Shown here one piece after another: positions 14,263 to 41,694 of a stretch of DNA of 56,887 nt. The DNA lies in contig JBPCTQ010000118.1 in assembly GCA_051011595.1 (NCBI GenBank), forward strand, positions 1 to 56,887, in the 5' to 3' direction. Within the stretch, counting starts at the first letter, position 1; the number at the start of each line of letters is the position of its first letter. The notes beneath the pieces were generated by a model. It had not been told where the DNA came from, searched no databases, and saw only the letters and a list, made by a program, of their open reading frames with translations. Source of the DNA: Acidimicrobiales bacterium. GTDB lineage: Bacteria; Actinomycetota; Acidimicrobiia; Acidimicrobiales; SHLQ01. Position numbers and translations under genes: made by a program.

Positions 14263-14493
14263 ATGATTGGTTACTTCGATGCCGGCACCGGCACCATGAT
14301 CATCTCGGCCGTGGCGGCGGGATTCGCCGGGATTGTCATGTTCGGGAAGTCGGTCTGGTACAAGCTGGCCTTCTGGCGCAAGCCCCAGGACAGCTCGATT
14401 GATCAGGCCGTCAACGTCGACCTCGACGATCTCGAAGGCACCGACGGACTCGACATCGGCGAGATCGACGACGCCGAGCTCGAGATCAACTGA
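14263..14493 (+). CDS. Small membrane protein with acidic C-terminus (unknown function)
   Basis: 76 aa, MIGYFDAGTGTMIISAVAAGFAGIVMFGKSVWYKLAFW then a D/E-rich tail. GC3-rich codons; the 3' end overlaps the convergent gene by 8 nt. Confidence 0.45.
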   Translation: MIGYFDAGTGTMIISAVAAGFAGIVMFGKSVWYKLAFWRKPQDSSIDQAVNVDLDDLEGTDGLDIGEIDDAELEIN

Positions 14494-16655: not shown

Positions 16656-16732
16656 CGACTCACCTCAAGGCGACCAGGTGGACCGAACGGCGGCCATCAC
16701 CGCAGCCACCGAACCCACGAGCACGAACCCGC

Positions 16733-22922: not shown

Positions 22923-22971
22923 CCGCCGAGGAGCAACGGCCTGGCGCACCTCAGCCTCTACAGTCGAACCC

Positions 22972-25543: not shown

Positions 25544-26616
25544 GCGGGTGGCGGCGCGATCTGCGCATCGCCTTGCCCGCCTGGATCACCACCCGGGTGT
25601 TGGTGGCCATCACGTTCGTGGTGGCCCATGCCGTGGGAGCCGACGACGACAAGGGTCAGCTCACCCTCGACCAGGGCCTGCTGGCCTGGGACGGCGACTG
25701 GTACCACCAGATCGCCGAACACGGTTATGGCGGAGCCCCGGACGGCGCCATTCGGTACTTTCCGGGGTACCCGCTCTTGGGGCGAGTTCTGGGATGGCCG
25801 CTCACGGGTCGCAGCGACATCGCGCTGGTGTTGGTGGCCAACCTGGCCGCGCTGGCCGCCACCGTCGTGTTGGTCCGTCTGGCCCGCCGCGAATTCGACG
25901 GGACCGTCGCTCGCCGCACGGCGTGGTGGTTCTCGCTGTTCCCCGCGTCGTTCGTACTCACCTGGGCGTACAGCGAGTCCGTCTTCGTGCTCGCGGCGGC
26001 CGTCGCCATGCTCGCCACTCGCTCCCGGCGCTGGCCGGTGGCCGCCGGCGCCGGCCTCCTCGCCGCTCTGGTTCGACCTACCGGCGTGTTGCTGAGCGGT
26101 TTCATCGCGGTCGACGGGTGGACCCGTCGACGGCGATCCGACCGCTTCGGCTGGGTGGCGGCCACCGTCGCCCCGATCGTGGGGCTGTGCTGCTTCTTCG
26201 TGTGGGCGCAATGGGCCGAGGACTCGTGGCGCGCCCCGCTCGATGCCCAGCGCGAGATTCGAGGCGGATTCCACGAACCGGTGACAAGGGTGCTGCGGGG
26301 TCTGGGGCGGGGCCTCGGCGGCGATCAGACCGAGCTGTTGCACGCCGTGGCCGCCATTGTGTTCGTCACGGTGATCGTGGTGGTGTTCCGGTCGCGGCCG
26401 GCCTACCTGGTGTACGGGCTCGGCGGGGTGGCCGTCGGCCTGGCCGCATCCACCATCAACAGCTTCGAACGCTACGGACTGGGACTGATCCCCGTGATCC
26501 TGGGCCTGGGCGCCCTGCCACTGTCGGAACGAGCCCACCGAATCGGCCTGGCCGGGTCGAGCCTGGCCATGATCGGCTTGGGCACCCTCGCCCTCACCGG
26601 CCAATACGTGCCGTAA
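25540..26616 (+). CDS. GT-C-like integral membrane mannosyltransferase-type protein (PIG-V-like)
   Basis: Start trimmed to the ATG in the ATGA overlap at 25540-25543. First loop has LAWDGDWYHQIAEHGY, which I associate with PIG-V-type transferases. About 9 TM spans. Confidence 0.55.
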   Translation: MSGWRRDLRIALPAWITTRVLVAITFVVAHAVGADDDKGQLTLDQGLLAWDGDWYHQIAEHGYGGAPDGAIRYFPGYPLLGRVLGWPLTGRSDIALVLVANLAALAATVVLVRLARREFDGTVARRTAWWFSLFPASFVLTWAYSESVFVLAAAVAMLATRSRRWPVAAGAGLLAALVRPTGVLLSGFIAVDGWTRRRRSDRFGWVAATVAPIVGLCCFFVWAQWAEDSWRAPLDAQREIRGGFHEPVTRVLRGLGRGLGGDQTELLHAVAAIVFVTVIVVVFRSRPAYLVYGLGGVAVGLAASTINSFERYGLGLIPVILGLGALPLSERAHRIGLAGSSLAMIGLGTLALTGQYVP

Positions 26617-26626: not shown

Positions 26627-28924
26627 ATGGTCAACCTGGTGCCGGCGGGCGATCTCGCCGACGACCCTGCGGGGGACCATCGATGGGTCGTCACCGGCCC
26701 TCGGCCCCAGCTCCGGGTCGACGGGGATCTGCCCGAGGGCTGGTATCGGTTGCGGGCCCGGTACCGGGCCGACGACACCCACCCCGGTGAGGCCTTGGGG
26801 CCCCAGCTGCGTCTCACCGGCCTGGCCGGACCCGTCAGCGCGGTGTCACGGGCCCTTGGGCTCCGCGACGACCACATCGACCGCATCGTGCACATCCCCG
26901 CGCAGGTCGCCGCGGTGTTCGTCGACCTGCCCATCACCGCTCGCGCCGTCGACATCGATCAGTTCCGCTGCGAAGCCGTCGGCCAGGCTTCGGCCGCCCG
27001 CATCATGCTGCAACGGGTGCTGGCCACCAGCCGAGAAGGATCCACCCAGACCGCGTCACTGCTCACCCGAGCCTGGGAGTCGCTGCGCAGCAGCGGGGCG
27101 ACGGGGCTTCGCGAGCAGTTGGTGGCCGACTACGAGGCCGTGCAACGGCGCCGAGCCGGCCTGGTGGCCATTCCCTACCGGGAGTGGATCGAATACCACG
27201 ACGTCCGCGATGGCGAGGACGGCACCGCCATCGATGCCCACATCGCCGCCTTCACGACCACACCCACCATCTCGGTGGTGGTGCCGGTGCACGACCCGCC
27301 CGCCGAGCTGCTCGAACGTTGCCTCGACTCGGTTCGGGCCCAGCGGTATCCGCATTGGCAGTTGTGCCTGGCCGATGACGCCAGCACCGATCCAGCGGTG
27401 GCCGCCGTGCTCGACCGGTACGAGGCCTCCGATGGTCGCATCGAGGTTGTTCGCCGGAGCGAGAACGGCCACATCGTGGCTGCGTCCAACTCGGCGCTCG
27501 GCCTGGCCACTGGCGAGTTCGTGGCCCTGCTCGACCACGACGACGAGCTCCCCGACCACGCCCTGTATCTGGTGGCACAGGCCATCGACGCCGACCCGTC
27601 GGTCGACCTCGTCTACACCGACGAGGACAAGATCGACGAGGAAGGTCGCCGCTACGACCCCCACTTCAAGCCCGACTACAACCCGGAGCTGTTGCTGGGC
27701 CAGAACTACTTCTCACACCTCACCACCATTCGTCGCTCGGTGGCGGAAGAGGTCGGGTCGTTCCGGCCCGGCACCGAAGGCAGCCAGGACTACGACCTGG
27801 TGCTGCGGGTGGTGGCCCACACCGACCGGATCGTGCACGTCCCACACGTGGGCTACCACTGGCGAGCCATCGAAGGGTCCACGGCCAAGGACAGCGCCGC
27901 CAAACGCTACGTGATCGATGCCGCCCTCACGGCCCTGCGCGACCACGTGCCCGACGATTGGACGGTCGAGCCGGCCTCCGCCCCCACCACCTACCGGGCC
28001 CGGCCGCCGCTACCCGACCCGGCCCCGTCGGTGTCGATCCTGGTACCCACCCGCAACGGGTGGCCCCTCATCGACACCTTGATGACGAGCCTCGAGCTGA
28101 CCACATATCCCAACTACGAAGTGGTGATCCTCGACAACCAGAGCGACGATCAACGAGCGCTGGCCGGCTTCGCCGAGCTGGAGGCTTCCGGGCGGGCTCG
28201 GGTGGAGCCCTTCGACGCCCCGTTCAACTACTCGGCCATCAACAACCACGGGGTCGACTGCACCGACGGCGAGTTGATCTGCCTGCTCAACAACGACATC
28301 GAGATCGTCGACGGCGACTGGCTCGGGGAGCTGGTTCGCCAGGCCGTCCGGCCCGAGATCGGAGCGGTCGGCGCCAAGCTGCTCTATCCCGACCGCACCA
28401 TCCAGCACGCCGGGGTGATCCTCGGTCTGGGTGGTGTGGCCGGCCACGGACACCGCCAGTTCGCCCATGACGCCCACGGGTACTTCAGCCGACTGGCCAT
28501 CACTCACCAGGTGGGAGCGGTCACCGGCGCCTGCCTGGTGGTGCGTCGCTCGGTGTGGACCGAAGCGGGCGGCCTCGACGAGTCCGATCTGGCGGTGGCG
28601 TTCAACGACGTCGACCTGTGCCTGAAGATCACCGCACAGGGCTACCGCAACGTGTTGTGCCCGCATGTGGTGCTGGTCCACCACGAGTCGGTCACCCGTG
28701 GGGCCGAGGACACACCCGAGAAGCAGGCTCGGTTCGGCTCCGAGATCGACGTGATGCTCAGTCGGTGGGGCGGCGCCCTGTTCGACGATCCGGCCTACAA
28801 CCCCAACCTGGCCTTGGACGCGGATGCCTTCACCCTGGCCCGCGAGCCGCGTGTCACCACCCCCTGGCGCCGGCGCGCCGATAGCCTCGGGCCAGCCGAG
28901 GACCACCTCGACACGGCACCATGA
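26627..28924 (+). CDS. Dual-GT2 glycosyltransferase (glycan polymerase type)
   Basis: 765 aa. First GT2: ISVVVPVHDPPAELLERCLDSV, LADDASTD, LLDHDDEL. Second GT2: VSILVPTRNG, ILDNQSDD, LLNNDIEI. Confidence 0.8.
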   Translation: MVNLVPAGDLADDPAGDHRWVVTGPRPQLRVDGDLPEGWYRLRARYRADDTHPGEALGPQLRLTGLAGPVSAVSRALGLRDDHIDRIVHIPAQVAAVFVDLPITARAVDIDQFRCEAVGQASAARIMLQRVLATSREGSTQTASLLTRAWESLRSSGATGLREQLVADYEAVQRRRAGLVAIPYREWIEYHDVRDGEDGTAIDAHIAAFTTTPTISVVVPVHDPPAELLERCLDSVRAQRYPHWQLCLADDASTDPAVAAVLDRYEASDGRIEVVRRSENGHIVAASNSALGLATGEFVALLDHDDELPDHALYLVAQAIDADPSVDLVYTDEDKIDEEGRRYDPHFKPDYNPELLLGQNYFSHLTTIRRSVAEEVGSFRPGTEGSQDYDLVLRVVAHTDRIVHVPHVGYHWRAIEGSTAKDSAAKRYVIDAALTALRDHVPDDWTVEPASAPTTYRARPPLPDPAPSVSILVPTRNGWPLIDTLMTSLELTTYPNYEVVILDNQSDDQRALAGFAELEASGRARVEPFDAPFNYSAINNHGVDCTDGELICLLNNDIEIVDGDWLGELVRQAVRPEIGAVGAKLLYPDRTIQHAGVILGLGGVAGHGHRQFAHDAHGYFSRLAITHQVGAVTGACLVVRRSVWTEAGGLDESDLAVAFNDVDLCLKITAQGYRNVLCPHVVLVHHESVTRGAEDTPEKQARFGSEIDVMLSRWGGALFDDPAYNPNLALDADAFTLAREPRVTTPWRRRADSLGPAEDHLDTAP

Positions 28925-29790
28925 GCAGCTCCGAAACCCCCGTCATCGTCTTCTCCCCCACCGGCCGCCAGCGGGGCATCCTCGGCTCGGCCCGCGAGGT
29001 CTGGGAGTACCGCGGATTCATCGAGTACCTCACCAAACGTGAGCTCAAGACGATGTACAACCGCAGCTACCTCGGGTGGTTGTGGTCGCTCATCAATCCG
29101 ATCATCGTCCTGGCCATCTACTGGTTCGTCTTCGGCCAGATCCTCAGCATCGATCGCGGCGCACCCAGCCCCACCGGCCTCGACTCGTTCGCCCACTTCC
29201 TCATGAGCGGCCTGATCCTTTGGAACCTCTTCAGCCAGGTCTCCAACGGATACCTCCAGGCCTTCCAGCAGTCGGTGGCCCTGCGCAAGAAGCTCTACTT
29301 CCCGCCGAGCGCCCACGGGGTGGCCCGCACCATCGTGAAGGTCATCGAGTCGAGCCTCGAACTGCTCGTGCTGGTCATCTTCTACGTCGCCTTCGACAAC
29401 TTCGGGGTCACGTTCATCCTGGTCCCGGTGATGATGCTGCTGGCCGCCGTGTACGGCATGGGGGTGGGGATGCTGCTGGCCGTGCCCAACGTGCGCTATC
29501 GCGACGTCGGCTACCTGTACTCGCTGGCGCTGCGCCTGTTCTTCTACCTCACACCCATCATCTGGCCCTACGAGCTCATCCAGTCCCGCATCGATGTCCC
29601 CCTCATCCGGTTCATCGCCGAGTGGAACCCCCTGGCCAAACTCATCGAAGCCAACCGCGACATCACCTACCGGCTCCAGTGGCCCGACCCGGGCGACATG
29701 ATCTATCTCGTCGTGTCGTCCACGCTCCTGTTCCTGCTGGGCTGGCGTTCGTTCCACAAACGGTCCATCAAGGCCACCGAGGGCCTCTGA
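28921..29790 (+). CDS. wzm: ABC-2 type polysaccharide exporter permease
   Basis: ATGA overlap with the upstream gene. RELKTMYNRSYLGWLWSLINP signature and 6 TM spans. Confidence 0.85.
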   Translation: MSSSETPVIVFSPTGRQRGILGSAREVWEYRGFIEYLTKRELKTMYNRSYLGWLWSLINPIIVLAIYWFVFGQILSIDRGAPSPTGLDSFAHFLMSGLILWNLFSQVSNGYLQAFQQSVALRKKLYFPPSAHGVARTIVKVIESSLELLVLVIFYVAFDNFGVTFILVPVMMLLAAVYGMGVGMLLAVPNVRYRDVGYLYSLALRLFFYLTPIIWPYELIQSRIDVPLIRFIAEWNPLAKLIEANRDITYRLQWPDPGDMIYLVVSSTLLFLLGWRSFHKRSIKATEGL

Positions 29791-29791: not shown

Positions 29792-30961
29792 TTGACCACC
29801 AGTCCCGATCTGCGCCCCGCAATCGTCGCCGAAGGCCTGGGCAAGATGTTCCGGCTCCATCGCAGCTCGACCAGCAGTCTGAAGTCGATGTTGGGTGGCC
29901 TCGGCAGCGCCAACTTCGAAGAGTTCTGGGCCGTCCGCGACGTCTCGATGACCATTCCCCGCGGCTCGATGGTGGGAATCATCGGCCGCAACGGTGCGGG
30001 CAAGTCGACGTTGTTACGCATGTTGTGCGGCGTCTACCAACCCTCCGAAGGCCGAGTCGAGGTCCGGGGCCGAATCACCGCACTGCTCGAATTGGGTGCC
30101 GGGTTCCACAACGAGTTGTCGGGCCGCGAGAACGTCTACATGAATGCCGCCGTCATGGGGATCTCTCGTGAGATGGTCGACGAGCGACTCGACGACATCA
30201 TCGCCCTGGCCGACATCGGCGACTTCATCAACAGCCCCGTAGAGGTCTACTCCAGCGGCATGCGGGCCCGGCTGGGCTTCGCGGTGTCGGTGTTCCTCGA
30301 CCCCGAGATCCTGCTGGCCGACGAGATCATCTCGGTGGGCGACGTCGGCTTCGCCAAACACTGCACCCAGCACATGCAACGTATGCGATCCGAGGGCGTC
30401 ACCATTGCCCTGGTGGCCCACAACCTCGGGATCATGGAGAGCATGTGCGACCACGTGGTGTGGCTGCACCAGGGCCAGCTGATGGCCCAGGGCGACCCCA
30501 CCGAGGTGGTTCGCGAGTACCGCGACTTCATGATGGGGGCCACCGACGACGTCCCGATCTCCGAGGACACCGGCGTCACCGGCATCACCCACCTCGACGC
30601 CGCCTCCGAGGACGGGGTGGCCTTCGGCTACACCGGCGCCCCCCTCACCGTCCGCGCCGGCTACGACCTGACCCGACCGGTCGAACAGGCGCAGGTGCGC
30701 GTGTTCGTGCACCACCAGAACGGGCCCGTGTACCTCGGGGACGAGTCCGGCGACCCCCGCACCCTGGAGGGACGCGGCGACATCGAGTACCACGTGCCCG
30801 TGCTGCCCGTGCCCCCCGGGCGCTACAGCCTCGAACTCCAGATCGTCGACGGCGCCGGTCACGTGATCGAGGCCCGCCGCTCTCCGCTGCCCGTTCGGCC
30901 CCTCGGTGAGCTGGTGACCGAACGCTACGTCGAGATGGGCGGCTACTGGCGCATCGACTGA
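29792..30961 (+). CDS. wzt: Polysaccharide ABC exporter ATPase with C-terminal beta-sandwich extension
   Basis: TTG start. Walker A GIIGRNGAGKSTLL, signature YSSGMRARLGFA, Walker B ILLADEI. About 140 extra C-terminal residues. Confidence 0.85.
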   Translation: MTTSPDLRPAIVAEGLGKMFRLHRSSTSSLKSMLGGLGSANFEEFWAVRDVSMTIPRGSMVGIIGRNGAGKSTLLRMLCGVYQPSEGRVEVRGRITALLELGAGFHNELSGRENVYMNAAVMGISREMVDERLDDIIALADIGDFINSPVEVYSSGMRARLGFAVSVFLDPEILLADEIISVGDVGFAKHCTQHMQRMRSEGVTIALVAHNLGIMESMCDHVVWLHQGQLMAQGDPTEVVREYRDFMMGATDDVPISEDTGVTGITHLDAASEDGVAFGYTGAPLTVRAGYDLTRPVEQAQVRVFVHHQNGPVYLGDESGDPRTLEGRGDIEYHVPVLPVPPGRYSLELQIVDGAGHVIEARRSPLPVRPLGELVTERYVEMGGYWRID

Positions 30962-31746
30962 GCGGATTCGGCTCGGGCCGACTCCACCAGCCGTTCGACA
31001 TAGCGCGAGCAGTGTTCGGGGTCGATGGTCGGATGCTCGGCCAGATCCCAGCCCTTCTGGTAGTCGAGCCGCCGCAGGACCGACGACACCATGGGCCGCA
31101 ACCACAACAGGTCGCGGTCGGTGAACCAGTGCTTCCAGTCCCCGGAGCTCTTGGTGCGCACCACTCGCTGGAGGTCGGGGCCCACGTCGGGTGTACCCAG
31201 CTCGTCGACCTCGAGGTAGATCTCCAACTGGCTGGTCTGACCGGCTATGTAGAGCTCGTAGTAGACCAAGGTGAAGAGGTCGCGGTAGCGGCCCAGCAGG
31301 TCGTTGAGCCGCGCCGTCGACCGGGCCAGTGCGCTCAACAGGTCGTTGCCCGTGAGTCGCCAGTAGGCGTGGGTCAGGCGAAGGAACGGCACCCCCACCG
31401 GGTCTTCCTCCTTCTTGCGCAGCATGTCGATGAACGTCTCGATCTTCTCCGGGTCGAGGTCGTTGACCCGGCCGTGGATGTCGTACAACAGCCACGACAC
31501 GAGGCGATCGCGGGGATCACGCACGATCAGCACCCGCCGGTCGAACTCCCCGAAGAGGTTCTTCTCCTCACCCGAGAGATTGCCGAGCAGCTTCTTGGCC
31601 ACCAGCTCGGGCGGCGACAGATCGATCTGGGTGAGGTCTTCGGGTTCGAAGTAGCTGTGTTCGGGTGCGATGTTGCGGGCGTCGCAGATGGCTCGGTGCA
31701 ACATGGTGGTGCCGCTCTTGGCCTCACCCAGGATGAGAGTCTTCAT
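30943..31746 (-). CDS. Sulfotransferase-family protein
   Basis: 5'-PSB-like loop LILGEAKSGTTMLHRAI and 3'-PB-like VLIVRDPRDRLVSWL. ATGA overlap with the upstream gene at 31743-31746. Confidence 0.65.
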   Translation of the reverse strand: MKTLILGEAKSGTTMLHRAICDARNIAPEHSYFEPEDLTQIDLSPPELVAKKLLGNLSGEEKNLFGEFDRRVLIVRDPRDRLVSWLLYDIHGRVNDLDPEKIETFIDMLRKKEEDPVGVPFLRLTHAYWRLTGNDLLSALARSTARLNDLLGRYRDLFTLVYYELYIAGQTSQLEIYLEVDELGTPDVGPDLQRVVRTKSSGDWKHWFTDRDLLWLRPMVSSVLRRLDYQKGWDLAEHPTIDPEHCSRYVERLVESARAESAQSMRQ

Positions 31747-32498
31747 GTAGAGAAGTTGTACCCGAGTTCGCGGCTGATCGGACCACAGATCTCCTCGACC
31801 AAGGCCAATGCCTCGGGATCGAGCACGTCGGCGAAGGCGTTTCGTTCGTGACGAACCCGGCCCAGCTCCTCGGGCGGCACCTGTTCGATGTCGACGAATC
31901 GACAGATCCGGCGCACCACGGTGACCGGATCACCGGTGAGGTCGGCGTAGGACACGGTGAGCATCCGTTCGGGGTTGGCCCGTTCGAACGCCGCGGCCAG
32001 AATCTCCGATTCACGCCAGTAGTTGGCGGCACCGACGACGTTGTCGACCTTCATCACCTTGCCCACCGCCAGGCTGGCCACCACATTGCGGGGGTCGCGG
32101 TAGATGTGCACGAAACGGGCGTCGGGATAGTCGGACGCCAGCAACGACACGCAGTAGATGTTCTGGGGTGTCTTGTCGAACCATCGAGTGTCGGGGTCGA
32201 GCCCTTGCTTCTCGCGGAACAGCGCCATGTACCGGTCGGTGAAGTCACGGCGGGTGTGGGAGTGCTCGAGCAGCTCCCCCATCTCGTCCTCGGTGACCTC
32301 GTCGATCTCGCGGTGGCGAGCCAGCACGGCGTTCTTGCGGTAGTTGTGCTCGAACTGGCGGGTACCGAAGGGTTGGGCCCAGCGATAGAAGTGAGTCTCC
32401 TCTGGACAACACAACCCCGGCACCGACCGGAGCAGGTCGCGGAGCATGGTGGTGCCCGAACGCACGCAGCCGAGGATGAAGAACGGAGGTTGGGTCAT
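31743..32498 (-). CDS. Sulfotransferase-family protein
   Basis: Start trimmed to MTQPPFFILGCVRSGTTMLRDLL (ATG 32498). Second motif HIYRDPRNVVASL. Confidence 0.7.
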   Translation of the reverse strand: MTQPPFFILGCVRSGTTMLRDLLRSVPGLCCPEETHFYRWAQPFGTRQFEHNYRKNAVLARHREIDEVTEDEMGELLEHSHTRRDFTDRYMALFREKQGLDPDTRWFDKTPQNIYCVSLLASDYPDARFVHIYRDPRNVVASLAVGKVMKVDNVVGAANYWRESEILAAAFERANPERMLTVSYADLTGDPVTVVRRICRFVDIEQVPPEELGRVRHERNAFADVLDPEALALVEEICGPISRELGYNFST

Positions 32499-32505: not shown

Positions 32506-35500
32506 TCAGCGGGTCCAGCCGGACACGTCGCCGCGCAGCTCGTCGTACAGGGCCAGCCAGTCGGCCGCCATGGCGCCGCGACCTCGCACGTTGTGCAGGG
32601 TGGCGGTACGAGCCAGATCGGCGTAGGCCAGACGATCGCGGCCGTACTTGGCGGCGGTGTGCACGATGACCTCCGGGTCGAGCTCGTCGACGACCAGGCC
32701 ACCGCCGTGTTCGTGGACCCGTTCGGCCGGCGCCCCCAAAGGACCGGTGATGACCGGGATGCCGGCGGCCCACGCTTCCGACAGTACGTAACAGTGCGTC
32801 TCGGGCCACAGGGAGAACACCCCGATGAACGTGGGGCGGATGACAGCGAGGCGAGCCATCAGCTCGTCGCGCTGGTACTCGCCGTGGCCGTGGGCCACGT
32901 GTTCGTATCCGGGTTCGACCTTGCCGAGAATCTCCAGGCGCACGCCGGCTTCGAGGCCGGCTTCGGCGATATCGGCGGCCAGGGTGGCACCCTTGGACTG
33001 GTTGATCCCGCCCACCAGCAACAACGTGACCGGTTCGTCGTGGCGCGGGGCCCGAGCGAAGGCTCGCTGGCGCCGGAAGTCGCGACCGTGCTCGATGATG
33101 TCGATTCGGGATCCCACATCGGCACCGAAGGTGGCGATGTACCGGTCCCGGGTGTCGTTCGACGGCGTGACGAACCGGGGAATGGTCTCGAACAGCTTGG
33201 TGGTCTCGTGGCGCCAGAGGTGCACGAATCGGTGTTTGAGGGGCAAGTCGTTGGGCAAGAAGACCGGGGTCGGGCAGCGGCCCTCACCTTCGGTGCAGAC
33301 GCCACGGCAGTAGCGCAACTGTTCGTCGAGCAGGTTGACCGATGGGCAGGCCAGGTAGAAGTCGTGCAACGACATGACCACCGGCAAGCCGATGGCGTCG
33401 GCCAGCTCGGGCAGATCGAGGGTGAGCCCGATGAGGTGCTGGATGTGCACCAGTGAGATGTCGTAGCGGGTGAGCACCTCCAGCGCGATGGCTGCGGCCT
33501 CGTCGTCGTGGAACTGGCGGATGTCCCAGGGGCGAGACATGTGCCACTCGTTCTCGATGACCCACTCCGGACCCTCGTAGCGCCACAGCCGCAGTGTCTG
33601 CCCGTCGGGCATCAACAACAACGGTTCCTCGTCGCCGGCGGCGGCCTCGGCCAGATCGCGGGCGAAGTACTCGGTGCCGCCACCGCCGGCGTGCAGCACA
33701 TGCAGCACCCGGGGCAGCGTGGCCTCGTCACCGTCGTCGGTGGCGGCCGCACCGGCGATCGATCGGGCGGCCACGAACGCCGTCGACGCCACGAACTCCT
33801 CGGCCAGCGAGGCGTAGTCCGGATACCGCTCGGCCAGTACCGCCAGGCCGTCGGTGATGAGGGCGTGGCGTTGGGCGTCGCCGAAACTGGCCGACTCCTC
33901 GTGGAACACGGCCACGTCGTCGGCCACCACGTGCTCGAACCCGGCGGATCGCAACTTCATGCAGAAGTCGTTCTCTTCGCCGTACCCACGCGGGAACCCC
34001 TCGTGGTCGAGGCGGGGGACTTCGGCCAGGGCCTCGGCTCGGACATACAGGCAGAATCCGTTGCCGGTGGGACCGGTGGGCCGTAGGTAGTGGCTGGCCC
34101 GGGCCACGCGGGCGGCGATGGTGGCGCCGTGGTGCAGGCCGGTGGGCACCGGGCTGGCGAAGGAGAAGACGCCGGCGTGGTCCGACAGCGGCGTGACCGT
34201 GCCGATTCCGGGTCGTTCGATCGCCGCCAGCCGCAAGCGCTCGGTCCACCGGGGTGTGACCTGGGTGTCGCTGTTGAGGATGATGACGTCGCCCTCGGTC
34301 ACCTCGTCGAGGCCCCGATTGACGGTGGCCGGGAAGCCGAGGTTCTCGGAATTGCGGATGATGCGAACCCCCGACCGCGATCGGAGCTGGTCGATGACCA
34401 GGTCGATTCGTTCGTCGGTGCTGGCATCGTCGATCAACACGATGTCGACATCGGACGGGGTGAAACGATCGACGGCCTCGAGACAGCGTTGGACGGCATC
34501 AGCCGCGTTGTAGATGGGGATGAGGACCGTCAGCCGGCGTTGCATGGTGCCGGCCCGCAGCTCGGACCGAACATGGTCCCAGTCGGCCTGGCGGGGCGGC
34601 GGCACCACCGGCGTCTCGGTGTGCTCGTCGTCTTCGGTGCCGCTCCCGGGGCTGCGGCCCAGTCGATCGGCGAAGCGCAGCACCCACTTGACGGCAGGCC
34701 GGGAGTACAACTCGGCCAGGTCCTGGGCCGTGAGGTTACGGGTGTGGATCGCCGTTTCGAGGTCGATGCGCAGGTCGGTCACCTGGTCCTGGAGGTGATC
34801 CAGTCCGCTGAGGTCGACCTCGGCATCGGTGAGCATGGCCCGTAGCCGTTCGATCTCATCGAGGTGGCGGTCCTCGATGGCCGTCCGCTCCTGTTCGATG
34901 AGGTTGATTCGTTTGTCGGACTCGGCCTCGATGCGGGCCACGTTCTCGTGTTCGTCGGACAGGCTCCGGCGGACCTCGTCGAGGGCGTCGCTCTGTTCGT
35001 CGATGTAGTCCCGAGCCTCCTGGAGTCGCTCCTCGTAGGCGGCCTCCGATGCCCTGAACTGGTCGAGCATGCTGGCGTGACCCCGGGCGAAGGACTCCTC
35101 GGCGATCGAATCGTTGAGCTCGTACAACGACACCGCCGCCTCGAACAACAGGTCCAGACCCGGTGTCTCCCGTCCGAGGGAGGGCACCTCGAAGCCGTCG
35201 TGGCCACCGTCGAGCGACCCCAGCACCTCGAGCAGCTGATGCTGTTGGGTCGACAGAACGATGCTGGCCTCGTCGTGGCCCCGGTGGTGGCGCAAGTCGG
35301 TCTCCAACACCGAGAGGAACCGGGCCATGCGGTCGGCGGTCTCGGCGTCACCGGCCGCCGGCCCCAGTTGTTCGACCGCGAACTCGACCAGGGCCTCGGT
35401 GTGCTCGGCGCCGGCCAACAGGTCGTCGTAATCGATCACGAACAACGGCAGGTCGGCCAGGCCGGCCAACGCCGTACGCGTGTAACGCTCCCAGATGGCC

Positions 35501-35982
35501 ACACCGTGCCGTAGGGCCAGACCGTTACGGTCCCGGATCGAGTGGGCCACGCTGACCGGATCGCGCCGGAGCAACACCGCGGCTTGGGGTGCCGATGCCA
35601 CCTCGCGCCAGAACGGCAGGGTCAGACACAGCCGGGGGTCCTTCATGAGCCACCGGTCGGTGGAGTAGGCCTCCAGGAAGGTGCGCCGGGCCCGCGGCTC
35701 GAGTCCATAGGTGGGATCGACCAGCTCGGTGATCGACGTGATGGCCGCTCGGGTGGGGGCGTACCAGGCCCCGCCGGCGCGGGTGAGCAGCTCCTCGGTG
35801 AGGTCCATGAGGGCCTGGACCTCGAAGTGCCCACGCGGGTTCGATTCGTCGCCACCCACCAGGTCGGCCTCGTCGGGCAGCTCGAAGGGCATGGTGGCCA
35901 GAGCTTCGGTGGCCGCGGAGGTACCGCTGCGATGCATGCCGACGACGAACAGACCCACGGCGGCGAGCCTACCGGTGTGCAT
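32506..35982 (-). CDS. Multidomain enzyme: sulfotransferase-like domain, about 150-aa coiled coil, GT2 domain, GT4 domain
   Basis: Start at MHTGRLAAVGLFVVGMHRSGTSAATEAL (ATG 35982; ATG 36021 alternative). LLRRDPVSVAHSI. Heptad-rich region EAAYEERLQEARDYIDEQSDALDEVRRSLSDEHENVARIEAESDKRINLIEQERTAIEDRHLDEIERLRAML. GT2: LTVLIPIYNAADAVQRCLEAV, LIDDASTD. GT-B C-terminal part. Confidence 0.8.
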   Translation of the reverse strand: MHTGRLAAVGLFVVGMHRSGTSAATEALATMPFELPDEADLVGGDESNPRGHFEVQALMDLTEELLTRAGGAWYAPTRAAITSITELVDPTYGLEPRARRTFLEAYSTDRWLMKDPRLCLTLPFWREVASAPQAAVLLRRDPVSVAHSIRDRNGLALRHGVAIWERYTRTALAGLADLPLFVIDYDDLLAGAEHTEALVEFAVEQLGPAAGDAETADRMARFLSVLETDLRHHRGHDEASIVLSTQQHQLLEVLGSLDGGHDGFEVPSLGRETPGLDLLFEAAVSLYELNDSIAEESFARGHASMLDQFRASEAAYEERLQEARDYIDEQSDALDEVRRSLSDEHENVARIEAESDKRINLIEQERTAIEDRHLDEIERLRAMLTDAEVDLSGLDHLQDQVTDLRIDLETAIHTRNLTAQDLAELYSRPAVKWVLRFADRLGRSPGSGTEDDEHTETPVVPPPRQADWDHVRSELRAGTMQRRLTVLIPIYNAADAVQRCLEAVDRFTPSDVDIVLIDDASTDERIDLVIDQLRSRSGVRIIRNSENLGFPATVNRGLDEVTEGDVIILNSDTQVTPRWTERLRLAAIERPGIGTVTPLSDHAGVFSFASPVPTGLHHGATIAARVARASHYLRPTGPTGNGFCLYVRAEALAEVPRLDHEGFPRGYGEENDFCMKLRSAGFEHVVADDVAVFHEESASFGDAQRHALITDGLAVLAERYPDYASLAEEFVASTAFVAARSIAGAAATDDGDEATLPRVLHVLHAGGGGTEYFARDLAEAAAGDEEPLLLMPDGQTLRLWRYEGPEWVIENEWHMSRPWDIRQFHDDEAAAIALEVLTRYDISLVHIQHLIGLTLDLPELADAIGLPVVMSLHDFYLACPSVNLLDEQLRYCRGVCTEGEGRCPTPVFLPNDLPLKHRFVHLWRHETTKLFETIPRFVTPSNDTRDRYIATFGADVGSRIDIIEHGRDFRRQRAFARAPRHDEPVTLLLVGGINQSKGATLAADIAEAGLEAGVRLEILGKVEPGYEHVAHGHGEYQRDELMARLAVIRPTFIGVFSLWPETHCYVLSEAWAAGIPVITGPLGAPAERVHEHGGGLVVDELDPEVIVHTAAKYGRDRLAYADLARTATLHNVRGRGAMAADWLALYDELRGDVSGWTR

Positions 35983-36074
35983 TTGACGAGGGGCGCACAC
36001 AGGTGATCGCGTGCCAACCACTGGATCGGCGCGGGCTTCCGCCGATGAGGATCACCGTGACTCCTGCCCTTGCG

Positions 36075-38321
36075 ATGCATCGTTTCCGCACCGTCGTTGC
36101 CGGCCTGGCAGCCTTCGCCCTGGTGTGCTTCGCCGCCGCTCCCGCGGGCGCTGCCCAAGGCGACGGCGCGTCGAGCGACGCCATGCCGGCCGAGCGGTCG
36201 TCCACCAGCGATCTGGCCCCGGGCGACCCCGCCACCATCACCTTCACCGGCGGTGGGTGGGGCCACGGCGCCGGTATGAGCCAGTACGGCGCCTACGGCC
36301 GCGCCGCGGCGGGCAAGAACTACAAGGCGATACTGCGCTTCTACTACCAGAACACCGTGGTGCGGCAGTCCGACTATGCGGGCAACGTGGCGGTCGGCCT
36401 GGGCACCAGCTCCGCGGTAACCTTCACCCCGCGGGGCCGGGCCGAACTGCGGCTGAACAACACGGTCAAGGCCGTGGCCCGCAACGGCCAGTCCGTTCGA
36501 GTGGCCCGCTCCGGTTCGGGTTGGAGCCTCAAGATCAACGGGGCCGAGCAGTGCGCGGCCGGATCGTGTGGGGGCGGCTCGTTTGCCCTCACCTACGCCG
36601 ACGGCACCATCATCGACGTGGCCGGTTTCGGCTCCTATGACCACGGCAAGATCAAACTGGTGCCCACGGCCCCCGGTTCGTCGTCGCTGTGGGTGGTGGT
36701 GGCCTCGCTCACCATGGACGAGTACCTCTACGGCCTGGCCGAGGTGCCGTCGTCGTGGCCGGCCGAGGCCCTGAAGACCCAGGCCGTGGCCGGACGCTCA
36801 TTCGCCCAGCACAACATCGAGGCTCGCCGGGCCTCGTCGAGTTGGACCAAACCCTTCGACCTGTCAGCCACCACCGGCGACCAGGTGTACGCCGGCCGAG
36901 CCAAGTCCGCGGGGTCGTACAGCGAATTCTGGCGGGCGGCCGTCGACGACACCTCCGGGGAGATCTCCACCTTCGAGGGCGAACCCATCCAGGCCTTCTA
37001 CTCGTCGTCGCACGGCGGCTACAGCGAGAACTCCGAGTACGTCTTCTACGAGAGACTCGACTACATCCGGGCTCGGCCCGATCCCTTCGACGGCCACCAG
37101 AACGCCTTCCACGAGTGGACGCGCACCTACTCGATCGCCGAACTGTCCCGCTGGCTGGGAGCCTATTCGTCCAGCAACGTGGGCACCCTCCGGTCGATCG
37201 AGATCACCGGCAACATCGGTGTCTCGGGCCGGGTCAACCGGGCCACGGCCGTCCTCATCGGTAGCGCCGGCACCAAACGCATCACCGGCAACGAGCTGCG
37301 CTGGCGTATCAACGCCGGCGCCGGAAGCAGCCTCGACCGCCAGCTACTCAGCACCAAGTTCGAGGTCGGCTCGACCAAAGCACCCGACGAGGCCCCGATC
37401 GGCAAGTTCAAGGTCACCGACGTGGTCGACTCCGGGCCCAATGCCCACATCTCACTACGAGGCTGGGCGCTCGATCCCGACACGTCGGCATCGATTCGGG
37501 TGTATCTGACCGACAACGGACGGTGGTCGGGAGGCCAGGTGGCCAACGACCTGCGTCCCGGCATCGACAACCAGTACGGCCTGGGCCCCAAACACGGCTT
37601 CGAGTTCGATCACGATCTGTCACCCGGTGTGCACCGGGTGTGTGTGGTCGCCCGCAATCACCCCGACAACACACCTGTCGAACTGGGCTGTCGCACCGTT
37701 CGCGTGGGCAACTCTCCGAGCGGCACCATCGCCGACGTGAGCTCCCGCGTCGAACCCGGCCTCCCCTACCGACCGGCGGTCGTGTCGGTCACCGGAACGG
37801 CCGACGACCCCGACACGCCCGGTGCCATCGACGTGGTGGTCGCCCTCGGCAACGAGACCACCACCGCAACCACGTCCAACGGCACCTTCGCCACCACCTT
37901 CTCCGCTCCCCCGGGCCCGGCCCAGGCCTGTGCCACCGTGGTCGACGATTCCGGTTTGCGCCCCGACGCCGACCTCGGATGTGTCAACCACCAGGTCGTT
38001 GACCGCTCCCCGGTGGGCAAGTTCAACGTCACGTTCCCCGGGCCCGGCCAGATCCGGCTGCACGGCTGGGCGCTCGACCCCGACAGCACCGCTTCGATCG
38101 ACGTCGTCCTCACGATCGACGGACAGACCGCCGCCGAACGCACCGCCGACGATGCCCGGCCCAGTATCGCCACCAAATACGGCCGGGGTCCCGCTCACGG
38201 CTACGACCTCGATGCCACGGTGGCACCGGGCCGCTACCGATTCTGCGTGCTGGCCATCGACGCCACCGACACGTCGGCGACGCCGGTGGAGATCGGCTGT
38301 CGCAACAAGACCGTCGCCTGA
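36075..38321 (+). CDS. Secreted SpoIID/LytB-domain peptidoglycan-remodelling protein with three C-terminal repeat modules
   Basis: Signal peptide MHRFRTVVAGLAAFALVCFAAAPAGAAQ (starts at 36003 or 36045 are possible). GGGWGHGAGMSQYGAYGRA and FYSSSHGGYSENSEYVF are SpoIID hallmarks. The C-terminal repeats match those of CDS 17491-19656. Confidence 0.8.
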   Translation: MHRFRTVVAGLAAFALVCFAAAPAGAAQGDGASSDAMPAERSSTSDLAPGDPATITFTGGGWGHGAGMSQYGAYGRAAAGKNYKAILRFYYQNTVVRQSDYAGNVAVGLGTSSAVTFTPRGRAELRLNNTVKAVARNGQSVRVARSGSGWSLKINGAEQCAAGSCGGGSFALTYADGTIIDVAGFGSYDHGKIKLVPTAPGSSSLWVVVASLTMDEYLYGLAEVPSSWPAEALKTQAVAGRSFAQHNIEARRASSSWTKPFDLSATTGDQVYAGRAKSAGSYSEFWRAAVDDTSGEISTFEGEPIQAFYSSSHGGYSENSEYVFYERLDYIRARPDPFDGHQNAFHEWTRTYSIAELSRWLGAYSSSNVGTLRSIEITGNIGVSGRVNRATAVLIGSAGTKRITGNELRWRINAGAGSSLDRQLLSTKFEVGSTKAPDEAPIGKFKVTDVVDSGPNAHISLRGWALDPDTSASIRVYLTDNGRWSGGQVANDLRPGIDNQYGLGPKHGFEFDHDLSPGVHRVCVVARNHPDNTPVELGCRTVRVGNSPSGTIADVSSRVEPGLPYRPAVVSVTGTADDPDTPGAIDVVVALGNETTTATTSNGTFATTFSAPPGPAQACATVVDDSGLRPDADLGCVNHQVVDRSPVGKFNVTFPGPGQIRLHGWALDPDSTASIDVVLTIDGQTAAERTADDARPSIATKYGRGPAHGYDLDATVAPGRYRFCVLAIDATDTSATPVEIGCRNKTVA
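37392..38318 (+). repeat. Three tandem copies of the same module family at the C-terminus of the SpoIID-like protein
   Basis: APIGKFKV...LRGWALDPDTSASIRVYL...LRPGIDNQYGLGPKHGFEF...HRVCVVA...LGCRTVRV and SPVGKFNV...LHGWALDPDSTASIDVVL...ARPSIATKYGRGPAHGYDL...YRFCVLA...IGCRNKTV. The middle copy is degenerate. Confidence 0.75.
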
Positions 38322-38329
38322 CGGTTCGT

Positions 38330-39181: not shown

Positions 39182-39197
39182 GCGCCGATGGTATGGC

Positions 39198-40046: not shown

Positions 40047-40059
40047 GGCAGTCCTCGTC

Positions 40060-41016: not shown

Positions 41017-41043
41017 GGAATTACCTCGAGGAATCGGGAAGGG

Positions 41044-41610: not shown

Positions 41611-41694
41611 GGTCTCCTCTGGCACTGGTGGGTCTGGCGGGTGCCGGTCGCAGCGGTTGACCACGCACGAGAGCCGACGGTACCGCGTTCGGGC

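What the first reader, a model, noticed from the sequence alone, without database searches (positions are those of the whole stretch)
30943..32498. Three sulfotransferase paralogues in one ABC-exported glycan locus predict a sulfated actinobacterial wall polysaccharide
Seen: two stand-alone sulfotransferase-like genes are joined by an ATGA overlap (30943-31746 and 31743-32498). A third such domain sits at the N-terminus of the adjacent fusion protein. Each has a P-loop-like (K/R/H)SGT(T/S) 5'-PSB motif and an RDP...(V/L)(V/A)S 3'-PB-like motif.

The locus also encodes rmlBCD, ugd and a UDP-xylose synthase. The polymer could therefore contain rhamnose, glucuronate and/or xylose.

Established: sulfated bacterial glycans are uncommon. 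Examples include rhizobial LPS/KPS, cyanobacterial synechan and mycobacterial sulfolipids.

I see no PAPS-synthesis genes (cysD/N/C) in the window. A TauE/SafE permease lies at 47996-48745.
Basis: partly seen in the sequence, partly recalled or inferred. Interest (0 to 1): 0.65.

Follow-up and report, generated by a model that had tools for sequence, protein, structure and literature searches.

The report
Sulfotransferase-capped glycan polymerase with ABC exporter
An uncultured Acidimicrobiia bacterium carries a cell-surface sugar-polymer locus with three genuine sulfotransferase domains, one fused by a long helical stalk to the polymerase where known systems put their chain-terminating enzyme, so sulfate may be a new "stop and export" mark.

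Summary
ST1 (30943-31746) and ST2 (31743-32498) overlap by ATGA on the minus strand. A third sulfotransferase domain heads the adjacent 1158-aa protein (32506-35982). Profile, motif and fold evidence places all three in the PAPS-dependent sulfotransferase superfamily. They belong to three distant families and are not recent paralogues.

This matches WbbB-type terminator/ruler/polymerase proteins of ABC-transporter-dependent glycan synthesis. The adjacent Wzt carries a C-terminal domain that resembles the cap-binding modules of Wzt.

The gene order fusion-ST2-ST1-wzt-wzm, flanked by rmlBCD, is conserved in Acidimicrobiales MAGs. Of the 150 closest representative proteins, 57 have the same head. 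Others carry methyltransferase, pyruvyltransferase or radical-SAM heads in its place.

Best reading: a sulfated, probably rhamnose-containing envelope glycan whose chains are capped by sulfation for length control and export. The capping role is inferred, at about 45%. PAPS supply and the chemistry could not be tested. I rate it a new variant of a known kind.

The parts
32506..35982 (-). Fusion protein (1158 aa; alternative GTG start at 36021): sulfotransferase head, helical stalk, GT2, GT4. Proposed polymerase / molecular ruler / terminator.
   Evidence: A single ORF. Pfam finds GT2, GT4 and weak Sulfotransfer_3. It is full length and collinear in 9 Acidimicrobiales MAG loci at 46-79% identity. 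57 of the 150 nearest representative proteins share the head-plus-GT2-GT4 plan.
35197..35970 (-). Sulfotransferase head (aa 5-262). Key residues: GMHRSGTS 15-22, E54, KDPR 114-117, R140, S148.
   Evidence: These residues are invariant in a 42-sequence family alignment and near-invariant in 57 fused heads. The family profile's significant PDB matches (E < 0.01) are TPST1, a tick TPST and M. tuberculosis Stf1; cytosolic SULT and CurM/OLS sulfotransferases follow at weaker E. The AF2 model has pLDDT above 90 over the domain. The top 17 Foldseek PDB hits are sulfotransferase-fold enzymes (one is retinol dehydratase) at E 3e-6 to 1e-3; P-loop kinases score weaker. A family member lies next to cysC, cysN and cysD in L031.
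34657..35157 (-). Helical stalk (aa 276-442): a 112-residue continuous helix plus shorter helices, ending in the conserved amphipathic helix RPAVKWVLRFADRL (34660-34701).
   Evidence: AF2 predicts helix 276-387 at pLDDT 85-97, then helices 392-414, 419-426 and 429-442. The segment is rich in L, E, A, D and R, with 1 Pro and 3 Gly in 167 residues, and shows a raised heptad score. Orthologues differ here by indels of up to about 80 residues. The head-to-GT gap ranges from 76 to 697 residues (median 217) across 57 homologues.
33877..34530 (-). GT2 (GT-A) module of the fusion.
   Evidence: Pfam Glycos_transf_2 at 70 bits, E 2.8e-19. PDB sequence hits include chondroitin synthase and TagF-associated GT2 domains.
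32602..33681 (-). GT4 (GT-B) module of the fusion, with an invariant 4-Cys motif at 33265-33366.
   Evidence: Pfam Glyco_transf_4 and Glyco_trans_1_4 at their gathering scores. The Cys motif is invariant in 36 distant homologues and 9 orthologues.
31743..32498 (-). ST2, a stand-alone Sulfotransfer_3-type sulfotransferase (251 aa).
   Evidence: Pfam at 125 bits, E 5.5e-36. PDB hits are the OLS and CurM sulfotransferases, Stf1, Stf9 and TPST, with the PEETH motif aligned to CurM/OLS PELH. There is a weak NCBIfam hit to NoeE. The gene lies directly downstream of the fusion in seven loci: L001, L003-L006, L008 and L010.
30943..31746 (-). ST1, a stand-alone Sulfotransfer_1-type sulfotransferase (267 aa).
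   Evidence: Pfam at 22 bits, equal to the cutoff. It has 68 homologues, many carrying PF00685 and some named sulfotransferase by NCBI. Invariant residues are KSGTT, E34, K51, RDPRD..S84 and RTK..GDW. The family profile matches SULT2A1, SULT2A8 and SULT2B1 at E 7e-7 to 5e-5 across all three PAPS motifs.
29792..30961 (+). Wzt, the ABC-transporter ATPase (389 aa), with a C-terminal beta-sandwich extension (about 30575-30958) resembling Wzt carbohydrate-binding modules. Its 3' end overlaps that of ST1 by 19 bp, convergently.
   Evidence: Pfam ABC_tran. Wzt_C is the top Pfam family for the C-terminal domain in 5 of 6 orthologues, with best E 7.6e-5, below the gathering score. A single-sequence AF2 model (pLDDT 60) has A. 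aeolicus Wzt (8dku, E 3.4e-6) as top Foldseek hit. It also matches the Kdo-cap-binding Wzt CBM 5hno (2.9e-5) and the 3-O-methyl-mannose-binding CBD 8dky/6o14 (TM 0.54-0.60). The extension is conserved in five Acidimicrobiales loci.
28921..29790 (+). Wzm, the ABC-2 permease.
   Evidence: Pfam ABC2_membrane at 72 bits. The gene is syntenic in related loci.
26627..28924 (+). Protein with two GT2 modules (765 aa) and an unassigned N-terminal domain of about 210 aa. Probably a second polymerase or an adaptor synthase.
   Evidence: Pfam finds two Glycos_transf_2 stretches at 141 bits. The gene is syntenic in L001, L003, L005, L006 and L010.
20281..26616 (+). Upstream genes of the same plus-strand operon: GT-B glycosyltransferase of Pfam group 1 (20281-21639), GT2 (21636-22922), unknown (22756-24003, start uncertain), PMT_2-type GT-C (23990-25543), PIG-V/GT87-like GT-C (25435-26616).
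   Evidence: Pfam hits. The PIG-V-like gene is syntenic in L001 and L006.
39198..42969 (-). rmlD (39198-40046), rmlB (40060-41016) and rmlC (41044-41664), plus a conserved unknown 424-aa protein (41695-42969).
   Evidence: NCBIfam: TIGR01181 at 429 bits and TIGR01214 at 267 bits, both above cutoff. rmlC scores 113 bits, and Pfam dTDP_sugar_isom scores 131 bits. The rmlD start was placed. The block is syntenic with the fusion in L003-L006, L008 and L009; in L010 the rml genes are present but partly inverted.
36003..39283 (.). Conserved neighbours: a SpoIID/LytB-domain protein (36003-38321, plus strand, divergent from the fusion) and a PhyH-family Fe/2OG dioxygenase (38330-39283, minus strand).
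   Evidence: Pfam and NCBIfam hits. The SpoIID-like gene neighbours the fusion in L001, L003-L006 and L008-L010. In L005 a PhyH paralogue and a fourth sulfotransferase lie between ST2 and ST1.

Best explanation
The region 20.3-43 kb is an ABC-transporter-dependent (Wzm/Wzt) locus for a cell-envelope glycan in an Acidimicrobiia bacterium. The glycan is probably rhamnose-containing and is modified with sulfate by three PAPS-dependent sulfotransferases.

Proposed mechanism for the 1158-aa protein:
- It works like WbbB of Klebsiella O12. Its C-terminal GT2 and GT4 modules polymerise the repeat on a lipid-linked primer at the cytoplasmic face of the membrane.
- A stalk of about 170 residues holds the N-terminal sulfotransferase roughly 15-20 nm away. 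Only chains that have reached a set length can reach it.
- Sulfation of the non-reducing terminal sugar then blocks further extension.
- The sulfated end is read by the C-terminal carbohydrate-binding-like domain of Wzt, which licenses export through Wzm/Wzt.
- ST1 and ST2 add further sulfate, either along the chain or on the terminal epitope.

Shown by computation:
- Sulfotransferase identity of all three domains, with intact cofactor motifs.
- The head/stalk/GT2/GT4 architecture.
- The Wzt C-terminal beta-sandwich.
- Conserved synteny.
- The wide occurrence of the same fusion plan.
- Its interchange with methyltransferase heads.

Inferred:
- That the head acts on the chain end and terminates polymerisation.
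- That the stalk is an oligomeric coiled-coil ruler.
- That Wzt recognises the sulfated cap.
- The sugar composition.
- The final attachment site.
For: Sulfotransferase identity.

PAPS link by association: a head-family member lies beside cysC, cysN and cysD and four further Sulfotransfer_3 genes in L031.

Architecture:
- AF2 predicts a long helix at residues 276-387.
- Stalk length varies among orthologues and across 57 homologues.
- Composition and heptad signal fit a coiled coil.

The head occupies the terminator position. Homologous GT2-GT4 modules carry other N-terminal heads:
- Methyltransf_24 in 17 of 36 non-sulfotransferase homologues scanned.
- Other methyltransferases in about 2.
- A pyruvyltransferase in 1.
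- Radical SAM in L011.
Head types are interleaved on a tree of the GT module. Methyl and methylphosphate groups are established caps. [quoted passage not shown]

Export coupling:
- The Wzt C-terminal domain matches Wzt CBMs by fold, and by Pfam below threshold.
- The L029 locus pairs a sulfotransferase-headed fusion with a Wzt that carries a Pfam Wzt_C hit.
- In published terminated systems a CBM on Wzt binds the cap.

No other terminator candidate (methyltransferase, kinase or Kdo transferase) was detected among the locus ORFs.

Operon and synteny.

Precedent for sulfate as a chain stopper: HNK-1ST caps the non-reducing GlcA of matriglycan and prevents extension (PMC9232514).
Against: - No biochemistry exists for any member of this family, and no glycan structure for any Acidimicrobiia.
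- Three other sulfotransferase-headed loci have a short Wzt without a CBM: L025/L026 (300 aa), L028 (248 aa) and L027 (310 aa). The head is therefore not universally tied to cap-dependent export and may be a tethered decorating enzyme there.
- The Wzt C-terminal evidence rests on a pLDDT-60 single-sequence model and Pfam hits below the gathering score. Profile-versus-PDB and hhalign comparisons were not significant.
- The coiled-coil state is inferred from a monomer model and a home-made heptad score.
- Two conserved proteins of unknown function (22756-24003 and 41695-42969) could supply another terminator.
- No PAPS-synthesis gene and no initiating phosphoglycosyl transferase lies in the window.
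Confidence: 0.45

Rival explanations
1. The glycan is sulfated, but the head is only a decorating enzyme. It sulfates internal residues as the chain grows. The helical region serves oligomerisation or scaffolding. Chain length is set by polymerisation/export coupling or by another factor.
For: - Three sulfotransferase-headed loci have Wzt without a CBM.
- Many loci hold several further stand-alone sulfotransferases, for example 7-8 in L029. That suggests heavy internal sulfation.
- The Wzt CBM evidence for the window is moderate only.
Against: - The head sits exactly where methyltransferase heads occur in homologous polymerases.
- Stalk length is highly variable while the head and GT modules are conserved, as expected of a ruler.
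- The window's Wzt does carry a conserved extra domain of Wzt-CBM fold.
- Stand-alone ST1 and ST2 are already available for internal sulfation.
Confidence: 0.33
2. One or more of the sulfotransferases act on a non-glycan substrate, such as a protein tyrosine (as with RaxST and TPST), a lipid or a small molecule. Their co-location with the glycan genes would then be incidental.
For: ST2 and the head are closest in sequence and fold to TPST and to the CurM/OLS and Stf-type enzymes, none of which acts on a polysaccharide.
Against: - The head is covalently fused to two glycosyltransferases in at least 57 representative clusters.
- ST2 and ST1 are translationally coupled to it and syntenic across MAGs.
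- Related loci are packed with GTs, Wzm/Wzt and nucleotide-sugar genes.
Confidence: 0.07
3. The head is a P-loop kinase or an inactive binding module rather than a sulfotransferase. If it is a kinase, the cap would be phosphate, as with the WbdD kinase.
For: - Pfam Sulfotransfer_3 is below threshold for the window sequence itself (21 bits against 27).
- P-loop kinases appear lower in the fold-search list.
Against: - There is no Walker-A lysine; the loop reads GMHRSGTS.
- The 3'-phosphate-binding R140 and S148, together with K114 and E54, are conserved in 54-57 of 58 aligned heads, counting the window.
- The top 17 fold hits are sulfotransferase-fold enzymes.
- Family members score PF13469, and one is adjacent to cysDNC.
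Confidence: 0.05

Closest known systems
WbbB of Klebsiella pneumoniae O12 / Raoultella terrigena (terminator GT99, coiled coil, two polymerase GTs)
   Same: - One polypeptide in the order N-terminal terminating enzyme, extended helical stalk, two C-terminal polymerising GT modules.
- Encoded next to wzm/wzt.
- Wzt carries a C-terminal cap-binding module.
The paradigm is as described in PMC11231755; the window's architecture comes.
   Different: The head is a PAPS-type sulfotransferase, not a beta-Kdo glycosyltransferase. The GT modules are GT2 plus GT4. No sequence relationship to WbbB was detected. The host is a monoderm actinobacterium, so the product is not an LPS O antigen.
WbdD (E. coli O9a/O8; K. 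pneumoniae O3/O5) and K. pneumoniae O7 ORF6 (methyltransferase-kinase, coiled coil, two GT2 modules)
   Same: - A non-glycosyl cap (methyl or methylphosphate) is installed by a small-molecule transferase at the distal end of a coiled-coil ruler.
- O7 ORF6 also has GT2 polymerase modules after the coil.
- Close homologues of the window's GT2-GT4 module carry methyltransferase heads.
   Different: The cap chemistry would be sulfate from PAPS rather than methyl or phosphate from SAM or ATP. WbdD lacks fused polymerase modules.
Wzt carbohydrate-binding modules (A. aeolicus 6o14/8dky, R. terrigena 5hno; Pfam PF14524)
   Same: A beta-sandwich appended to the C terminus of the Wzt ATPase. These are the top fold-search matches, and Wzt_C is the top Pfam family.
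   Different: Sequence similarity is below Pfam's threshold and the ligand is unknown. A module reading a sulfated sugar would have a new specificity.
HNK-1 sulfotransferase capping of matriglycan made by LARGE1 (animals)
   Same: Sulfation of the non-reducing terminal sugar of a polymer made by a dual-GT polymerase prevents further extension and controls length (PMC9232514).
   Different: It is a separate Golgi enzyme with no fusion, ruler or exporter read-out, and no close sequence relationship was shown.
Characterised bacterial carbohydrate, lipid and protein sulfotransferases: rhizobial NoeE, NodH, LpsS and KpsS; mycobacterial Stf0 and Stf1; CurM/OLS sulfotransferase domains; Xanthomonas RaxST. 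Several of these are listed from general knowledge.
   Same: The same PAPS-dependent fold and motifs. ST2 has weak NoeE, Stf1 and CurM hits. Stf0 appears in the fold list.
   Different: These are stand-alone or PKS-embedded enzymes. None is fused through a stalk to a glycan polymerase, and none is known to act as a chain terminator.

Membership tests
PAPS-dependent sulfotransferase superfamily (Pfam Sulfotransfer_1 / Sulfotransfer_3) | Significant profile match to a curated sulfotransferase family. | tested here: met
   - ST2 scores 125 bits on PF13469.
- ST1 scores 22.0 bits on PF00685, equal to the gathering score.
- The head scores 21 bits, below its cutoff of 27.
- Both the ST1 and the head family profiles match sulfotransferases in PDB.
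- Many homologues carry PF13469 or PF00685.
PAPS-dependent sulfotransferase superfamily (Pfam Sulfotransfer_1 / Sulfotransfer_3) | 5'-phosphosulfate-binding loop (xxSGT[TS]) and 3'-phosphate-binding motif (R-x7-S). | tested here: met
   - ST1: K10-SGTT, and R76...S84.
- ST2: RSGTT, and RDPRNVVAS.
- Head: R18-SGTS, and R140...S148.
These residues are invariant in the family alignments and present in 50-57 of the 58 aligned heads, counting the window. They align to the TPST and SULT motifs.
PAPS-dependent sulfotransferase superfamily (Pfam Sulfotransfer_1 / Sulfotransfer_3) | Sulfotransferase fold (alpha/beta P-loop-like with PAPS cleft). | tested here: met
   The head AF2 model has pLDDT above 90, and its top 17 PDB fold hits are sulfotransferase-fold enzymes. 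ST1 and ST2 were not modelled; for them the fold is inferred from sequence profiles.
PAPS-dependent sulfotransferase superfamily (Pfam Sulfotransfer_1 / Sulfotransfer_3) | A catalytic base, and measured PAPS-dependent sulfotransfer. | not testable with these tools
   Candidate bases are invariant: head E54 and K114, ST1 E34, ST2 E31, E32 and H34. Mapping head E54 and K114 to TPST2 E99 and K158 rests on my memory of the TPST sequence, not on a residue-level alignment. Activity needs an assay.
Coiled-coil terminator / molecular-ruler proteins of ABC-transporter-dependent glycan synthesis (WbbB, WbdD, O7 ORF6 type) | An extended coiled coil separating a distal modifying domain from the polymerase or membrane-proximal end. 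| tested here: inconclusive
   The monomer AF2 model has a 112-residue helix plus further helices. The stalk varies in length, and composition and heptad signal fit a coiled coil. Oligomeric coiled-coil formation was not modelled, and no dedicated predictor was available.
Coiled-coil terminator / molecular-ruler proteins of ABC-transporter-dependent glycan synthesis (WbbB, WbdD, O7 ORF6 type) | Polymerising GT modules in the same protein or recruited to it, encoded with wzm/wzt. | tested here: met
   GT2 and GT4 follow the stalk. wzm and wzt are adjacent and syntenic. The same holds in L025, L028 and L029 (Wzm plus Wzt) and in L027, which has an ABC ATPase beside an unassigned 277-aa protein.
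Coiled-coil terminator / molecular-ruler proteins of ABC-transporter-dependent glycan synthesis (WbbB, WbdD, O7 ORF6 type) | Wzt carries a C-terminal carbohydrate-binding module specific for the cap. | tested here: inconclusive
   The domain is present and conserved. Wzt_C is the top Pfam family but below the gathering score. Wzt CBMs are among the best fold matches, from a pLDDT-60 model. Ligand specificity was not tested. Three other sulfotransferase-headed loci lack the domain.
Coiled-coil terminator / molecular-ruler proteins of ABC-transporter-dependent glycan synthesis (WbbB, WbdD, O7 ORF6 type) | The distal domain adds a non-reducing-end residue that stops polymerisation and sets chain length. 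| not testable with these tools
   This needs the glycan structure and mutant phenotypes. The only support is positional equivalence to methyltransferase heads.
Coiled-coil terminator / molecular-ruler proteins of ABC-transporter-dependent glycan synthesis (WbbB, WbdD, O7 ORF6 type) | Homology of the terminator domain to known terminators (GT99, GT137, WbdD kinase or methyltransferase). | tested here: not met
   The head is a sulfotransferase. No GT99, kinase or methyltransferase family was hit. It works like this family but is not a sequence member of any known terminator family.
dTDP-L-rhamnose pathway (RmlABCD) | RmlB, RmlC and RmlD equivalogs are present, and RmlA is present. | tested here: inconclusive
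   RmlB and RmlD score above the NCBIfam cutoffs, and RmlC is supported by Pfam. No RmlA-type gene lies beside them. The only NTP_transferase is the partial ORF at 1-1176, which has a hexapeptide C-terminal domain.

The most novel reading that the evidence does not exclude
Sulfation is a previously unrecognised chain-terminating, export-licensing cap for ABC-transporter-dependent bacterial glycans. It would be installed by a sulfotransferase held on a coiled-coil ruler fused to the polymerase, and read by a sulfate-specific Wzt carbohydrate-binding module.

The fusion plan is common. It appears in 57 of the 150 nearest 50%-identity clusters and spans Acidimicrobiia, Planctomycetota and a probable Firmicute. 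If the reading is right, a large hidden class of length-controlled sulfated envelope polymers exists in environmental bacteria.
Probability: 0.4. Interest if true: 0.75.

Novelty: new variant of a known kind. Interest (0 to 1): 0.62.

Why it matters
Known caps in ABC-transporter-dependent glycan assembly are methyl, methylphosphate and Kdo. A sulfate cap would be a fourth chemistry, and it would imply Wzt modules that recognise sulfated sugars.

It would also give a genetic handle on sulfated, glycosaminoglycan-like polymers in uncultured marine and soil bacteria, and on how their length is set. That matters for carbon and sulfur cycling, for phage and grazer recognition, and for the enzymatic synthesis of defined sulfated glycans.

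The hypothesis is directly testable with recombinant proteins. In databases the head goes unannotated: these proteins are simply named 'glycosyltransferase'.

Tried and rejected
- Exact look-ups of ST1 and ST2 in the contig index found nothing.
- ST1 alone against PDB gave no hit. A family profile was needed.
- The word-indexed homologue search with the Wzt C-terminal domain returned nothing and used the last search of that kind.
- The Wzt C-terminal profile against PDB sequences was not significant.
- hhalign against Wzt_C-positive domains from L013 and L014 aligned only a 25-33-residue 'LP(L/V)xPGxY' stretch, with probabilities of 1% and 42%.
- The Whitfield 2020 review and Williams 2017 (WbbB) are not held in the library. 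I could not check whether they mention sulfotransferase heads.
- Literature searches combining sulfotransferase with coiled coil, molecular ruler, Wzt, WbbB or WbdD found no bacterial report. The nearest is an uncharacterised stand-alone sulfotransferase-domain gene next to wzt and wbbB in Aeromonas salmonicida, whose O antigen has no known sulfate.
- A kinase identity for the head was rejected on motifs and fold ranking.
- I rejected the idea that ugd and the UXS-like gene belong to this operon, because they are not syntenic in related loci.
- I rejected TauE and the MoeZ-like gene as evidence for PAPS metabolism, because they sit among housekeeping genes.
- The two conserved unknown proteins gave no Pfam, NCBIfam or PDB hit.

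Full report
**Observation**

The window has about 68% G+C. Its closest public relative for this locus is an Acidimicrobiia MAG (JAOUEE01, 79% identity over the large protein). More distant relatives are all Acidimicrobiales MAGs.

Three genes form a tight operon on the minus strand:
- a 1158-aa ORF at 32506-35982 (alternative GTG start at 36021);
- ST2 at 31743-32498, starting 7 nt after the stop of the first;
- ST1 at 30943-31746, overlapping ST2 by ATGA.

**Are they sulfotransferases?**

ST2 is clear. It scores 125 bits on Pfam Sulfotransfer_3 (E 5.5e-36). Its PDB sequence hits are the OLS and CurM sulfotransferase domains, the mycobacterial Stf1 and Stf9 structures and tyrosylprotein sulfotransferases. 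Its PEETH segment aligns to the CurM/OLS PELH catalytic segment.

ST1 alone sits exactly at the Sulfotransfer_1 gathering score and finds nothing in PDB.
- It has 68 homologues, many scoring PF00685.
- A profile of 30 of them matches SULT2A1, SULT2A8 and SULT2B1 at E 7e-7 to 5e-5.
- The match covers the PSB loop, the RDPRD..S motif and the C-terminal R-x-K-x-x-GDW motif.

The N-terminal 270 residues of the large protein score only 21 bits on Sulfotransfer_3 (cutoff 27).
- They have 234 homologues, mostly stand-alone proteins of 300-400 aa, many carrying PF13469.
- Invariant residues are GMHRSGTS, E54, KDPR 114-117, R140 and S148.
- The family profile's best PDB matches are TPST-type enzymes and Stf1.
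- An AF2 model has pLDDT above 90 across the domain.
- Its top 17 Foldseek PDB matches are all sulfotransferase-fold enzymes (one is retinol dehydratase); P-loop kinases come only below them.
- One family member lies beside cysC, cysN, cysD and four more sulfotransferase genes (L031).

The three domains are not close paralogues, however. Pairwise BLAST aligns only the P-loop region (E 0.006-0.4).

After the head, AF2 predicts a single 112-residue helix (276-387, pLDDT 85-97), followed by shorter helices to residue 442.
- This segment is rich in L, E, A, D and R, has almost no Pro or Gly, and shows a raised heptad signal.
- Orthologues differ here by indels of up to about 80 residues, while the head and the GT modules align cleanly.
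- It ends in a conserved amphipathic helix, RPAVKWVLRFADRL.
- A GT2 module and a GT4 module follow.

Head, stalk, then two GTs is the plan of WbbB. More loosely, it is also the plan of WbdD and of the Klebsiella O7 ORF6 protein. In those systems the terminating enzyme sits at the distal end of a coiled-coil molecular ruler, and a carbohydrate-binding module on Wzt admits only capped chains to the exporter (PMC11231755).

**The exporter**

wzm (28921-29790) and wzt (29792-30961) converge on the sulfotransferase operon. Wzt has a C-terminal extension of about 140 residues that is conserved in five related MAG loci.
- Pfam Wzt_C is the top family for this extension in 5 of 6 orthologues, with best E 7.6e-5, below threshold.
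- A single-sequence AF2 model is only moderately confident (pLDDT 60).
- Its best PDB fold match is the A. aeolicus Wzt.
- The Kdo-cap-binding Wzt module 5hno and the 3-O-methyl-mannose-binding module 8dky/6o14 are also among the top hits, alongside generic beta-sandwiches.
- Sequence-profile comparisons to PDB and to Wzt_C-positive domains were not significant.

I treat the cap-binding module as likely but not established.

**Comparative evidence**

The order rmlC-rmlB-rmlD, SpoIID-like, fusion, ST2, ST1, wzt, wzm, 2xGT2 recurs in Acidimicrobiales loci. In L005 the roughly 2-kb insert between ST2 and ST1 holds a fourth sulfotransferase and a PhyH dioxygenase. A similar gap occurs in L006, L008 and L010.

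An exhaustive HMMER search of 1.84 billion representative proteins returned 150 best hits that share the GT2-GT4 module.
- 57 of them carry the same sulfotransferase head at residues about 3-300, with the cofactor and catalytic residues conserved.
- Their head-to-GT spacer ranges from 76 to 697 residues.
- Sampled contexts include Planctomycetota UBA1135, a contig carrying a CW_binding_2 gene, and a locus with seven or eight further sulfotransferase genes.
- Three of these contexts encode a Wzm/Wzt pair. The fourth (L027) has an ABC ATPase beside an unassigned 277-aa protein.
- Of 36 homologues that have a long N-terminal extension but no sulfotransferase head, 17 carry a Methyltransf_24 head. 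A few carry other methyltransferases, and one carries a pyruvyltransferase.
- A Defluviitaleaceae homologue has a radical-SAM head.
- On a crude NJ tree of the GT module, the head types are interleaved.

The sulfotransferase therefore occupies a swappable slot that is otherwise filled by enzymes of established cap chemistry.

**Caveats**

- Three of the sampled sulfotransferase-headed loci have a short Wzt without a binding module. In those, the head may simply decorate the chain.
- Two conserved proteins in the window remain entirely unassigned.
- No PAPS-synthesis gene and no initiating transferase lies in the window.
- ugd and the UXS-like SDR are real genes. They sit about 25 kb away with three GT4 genes and an LCP ligase, separated by housekeeping genes, and they are absent from the syntenic block in related loci. 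Only rhamnose is well linked to this operon.

**Interpretation**

- With high confidence (about 0.8), this is an ABC-transporter-dependent envelope-glycan locus whose product is sulfated.
- With moderate confidence (about 0.45), the head is a chain-terminating, length-setting sulfotransferase whose product is read by Wzt.
- The main rival (about 0.33) is a tethered decorating enzyme.

Sulfate capping that halts a dual-GT polymerase has a eukaryotic precedent: HNK-1ST acting on matriglycan (PMC9232514).

I found no bacterial report that links a sulfotransferase to a coiled-coil ruler. The key reviews were not available to check. Databases name these proteins only 'glycosyltransferase'.

I classify the finding as a new variant of a known kind, with interest 0.62.

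Noticed in passing
window 33265-33366 (fusion aa 873-906): An invariant four-cysteine motif, C-P-S-x12-C-x3-C-x7-C, lies inside the N-lobe of the GT4 module. It is conserved in 9 orthologues and in 36 distant homologues, and may be a metal (Zn) site.
   Followed up: partly
window 34660-34701 (fusion aa 428-441): A conserved, strongly amphipathic helix, RPAVKWVLRFADRL, sits at the base of the stalk just before the linker to GT2. It may be a membrane-association or docking element, comparable in position to the WbdD amphipathic helix.
   Followed up: partly
window 38330-39283 (-); L005 14134-16079: A PhyH-family Fe/2OG dioxygenase travels with the sulfotransferases. In L005 a PhyH paralogue and a fourth sulfotransferase are inserted between ST2 and ST1; L006, L008 and L010 show a gap of similar size there. 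Its role is unknown.
   Followed up: partly
window 36003-38321 (+): A 772-aa SpoIID/LytB-domain protein is the divergent neighbour of the fusion gene in eight of the Acidimicrobiales loci (L001, L003-L006, L008-L010). This hints at a link between this glycan and peptidoglycan remodelling.
   Followed up: no
window 41695-42969 (-) and 22756-24003 (+): Two proteins have no Pfam, NCBIfam or PDB match. The first is conserved next to rmlC in L003-L006 and L008-L010. Either could be an unrecognised enzyme of the pathway.
   Followed up: partly
window 30943-30961: wzt and ST1 are convergent, and their 3' ends overlap by 19 bp. No intergenic terminator can lie between the two operons.
   Followed up: no
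L029 (ENA ERZ25071726 contig, 17.9 kb): A sulfotransferase-headed fusion homologue sits with seven or eight further sulfotransferase genes and a Wzt that carries a Pfam Wzt_C hit. This looks like a locus for a very heavily sulfated polymer.
   Followed up: no
L031 (ENA ERZ25039548 contig_18541) 2021-4821 and 10001-19053: cysC, cysN and cysD lie inside a glycan locus together with a head-family sulfotransferase, four more sulfotransferases, methyltransferases and a WecA-type initiating transferase.
   Followed up: no
L011 871-4713 (Defluviitaleaceae MAG): A homologue of the stalk-GT2-GT4 part (33% identity from residue 334 onward) carries an N-terminal radical-SAM domain instead of a sulfotransferase. 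It lies next to a short Wzt.
   Followed up: partly
window 1-9309: A second glycan sub-cluster: a partial NTP_transferase with a hexapeptide domain, an unassigned 262-aa ORF (1038-1826), three GT4 genes, a UXS-like SDR, Ugd and an LCP-family ligase. A TagF-like glycerophosphotransferase lies further along at 14486-15607.
   Followed up: partly
window 52530-55915: A 750-aa protein with neocarzinostatin-family domains (52530-54782, minus strand) and a barnase-type secreted ribonuclease (55394-55915, plus strand). Both are unrelated to the finding.
   Followed up: no
window 43036-44196 (-): A rhodanese-ThiF (MoeZ-like) sulfur-carrier-activating enzyme, with Sir2, a GDSL lipase, PepA, TauE and MetH nearby. 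These are sulfur-related housekeeping genes, not PAPS synthesis.
   Followed up: no
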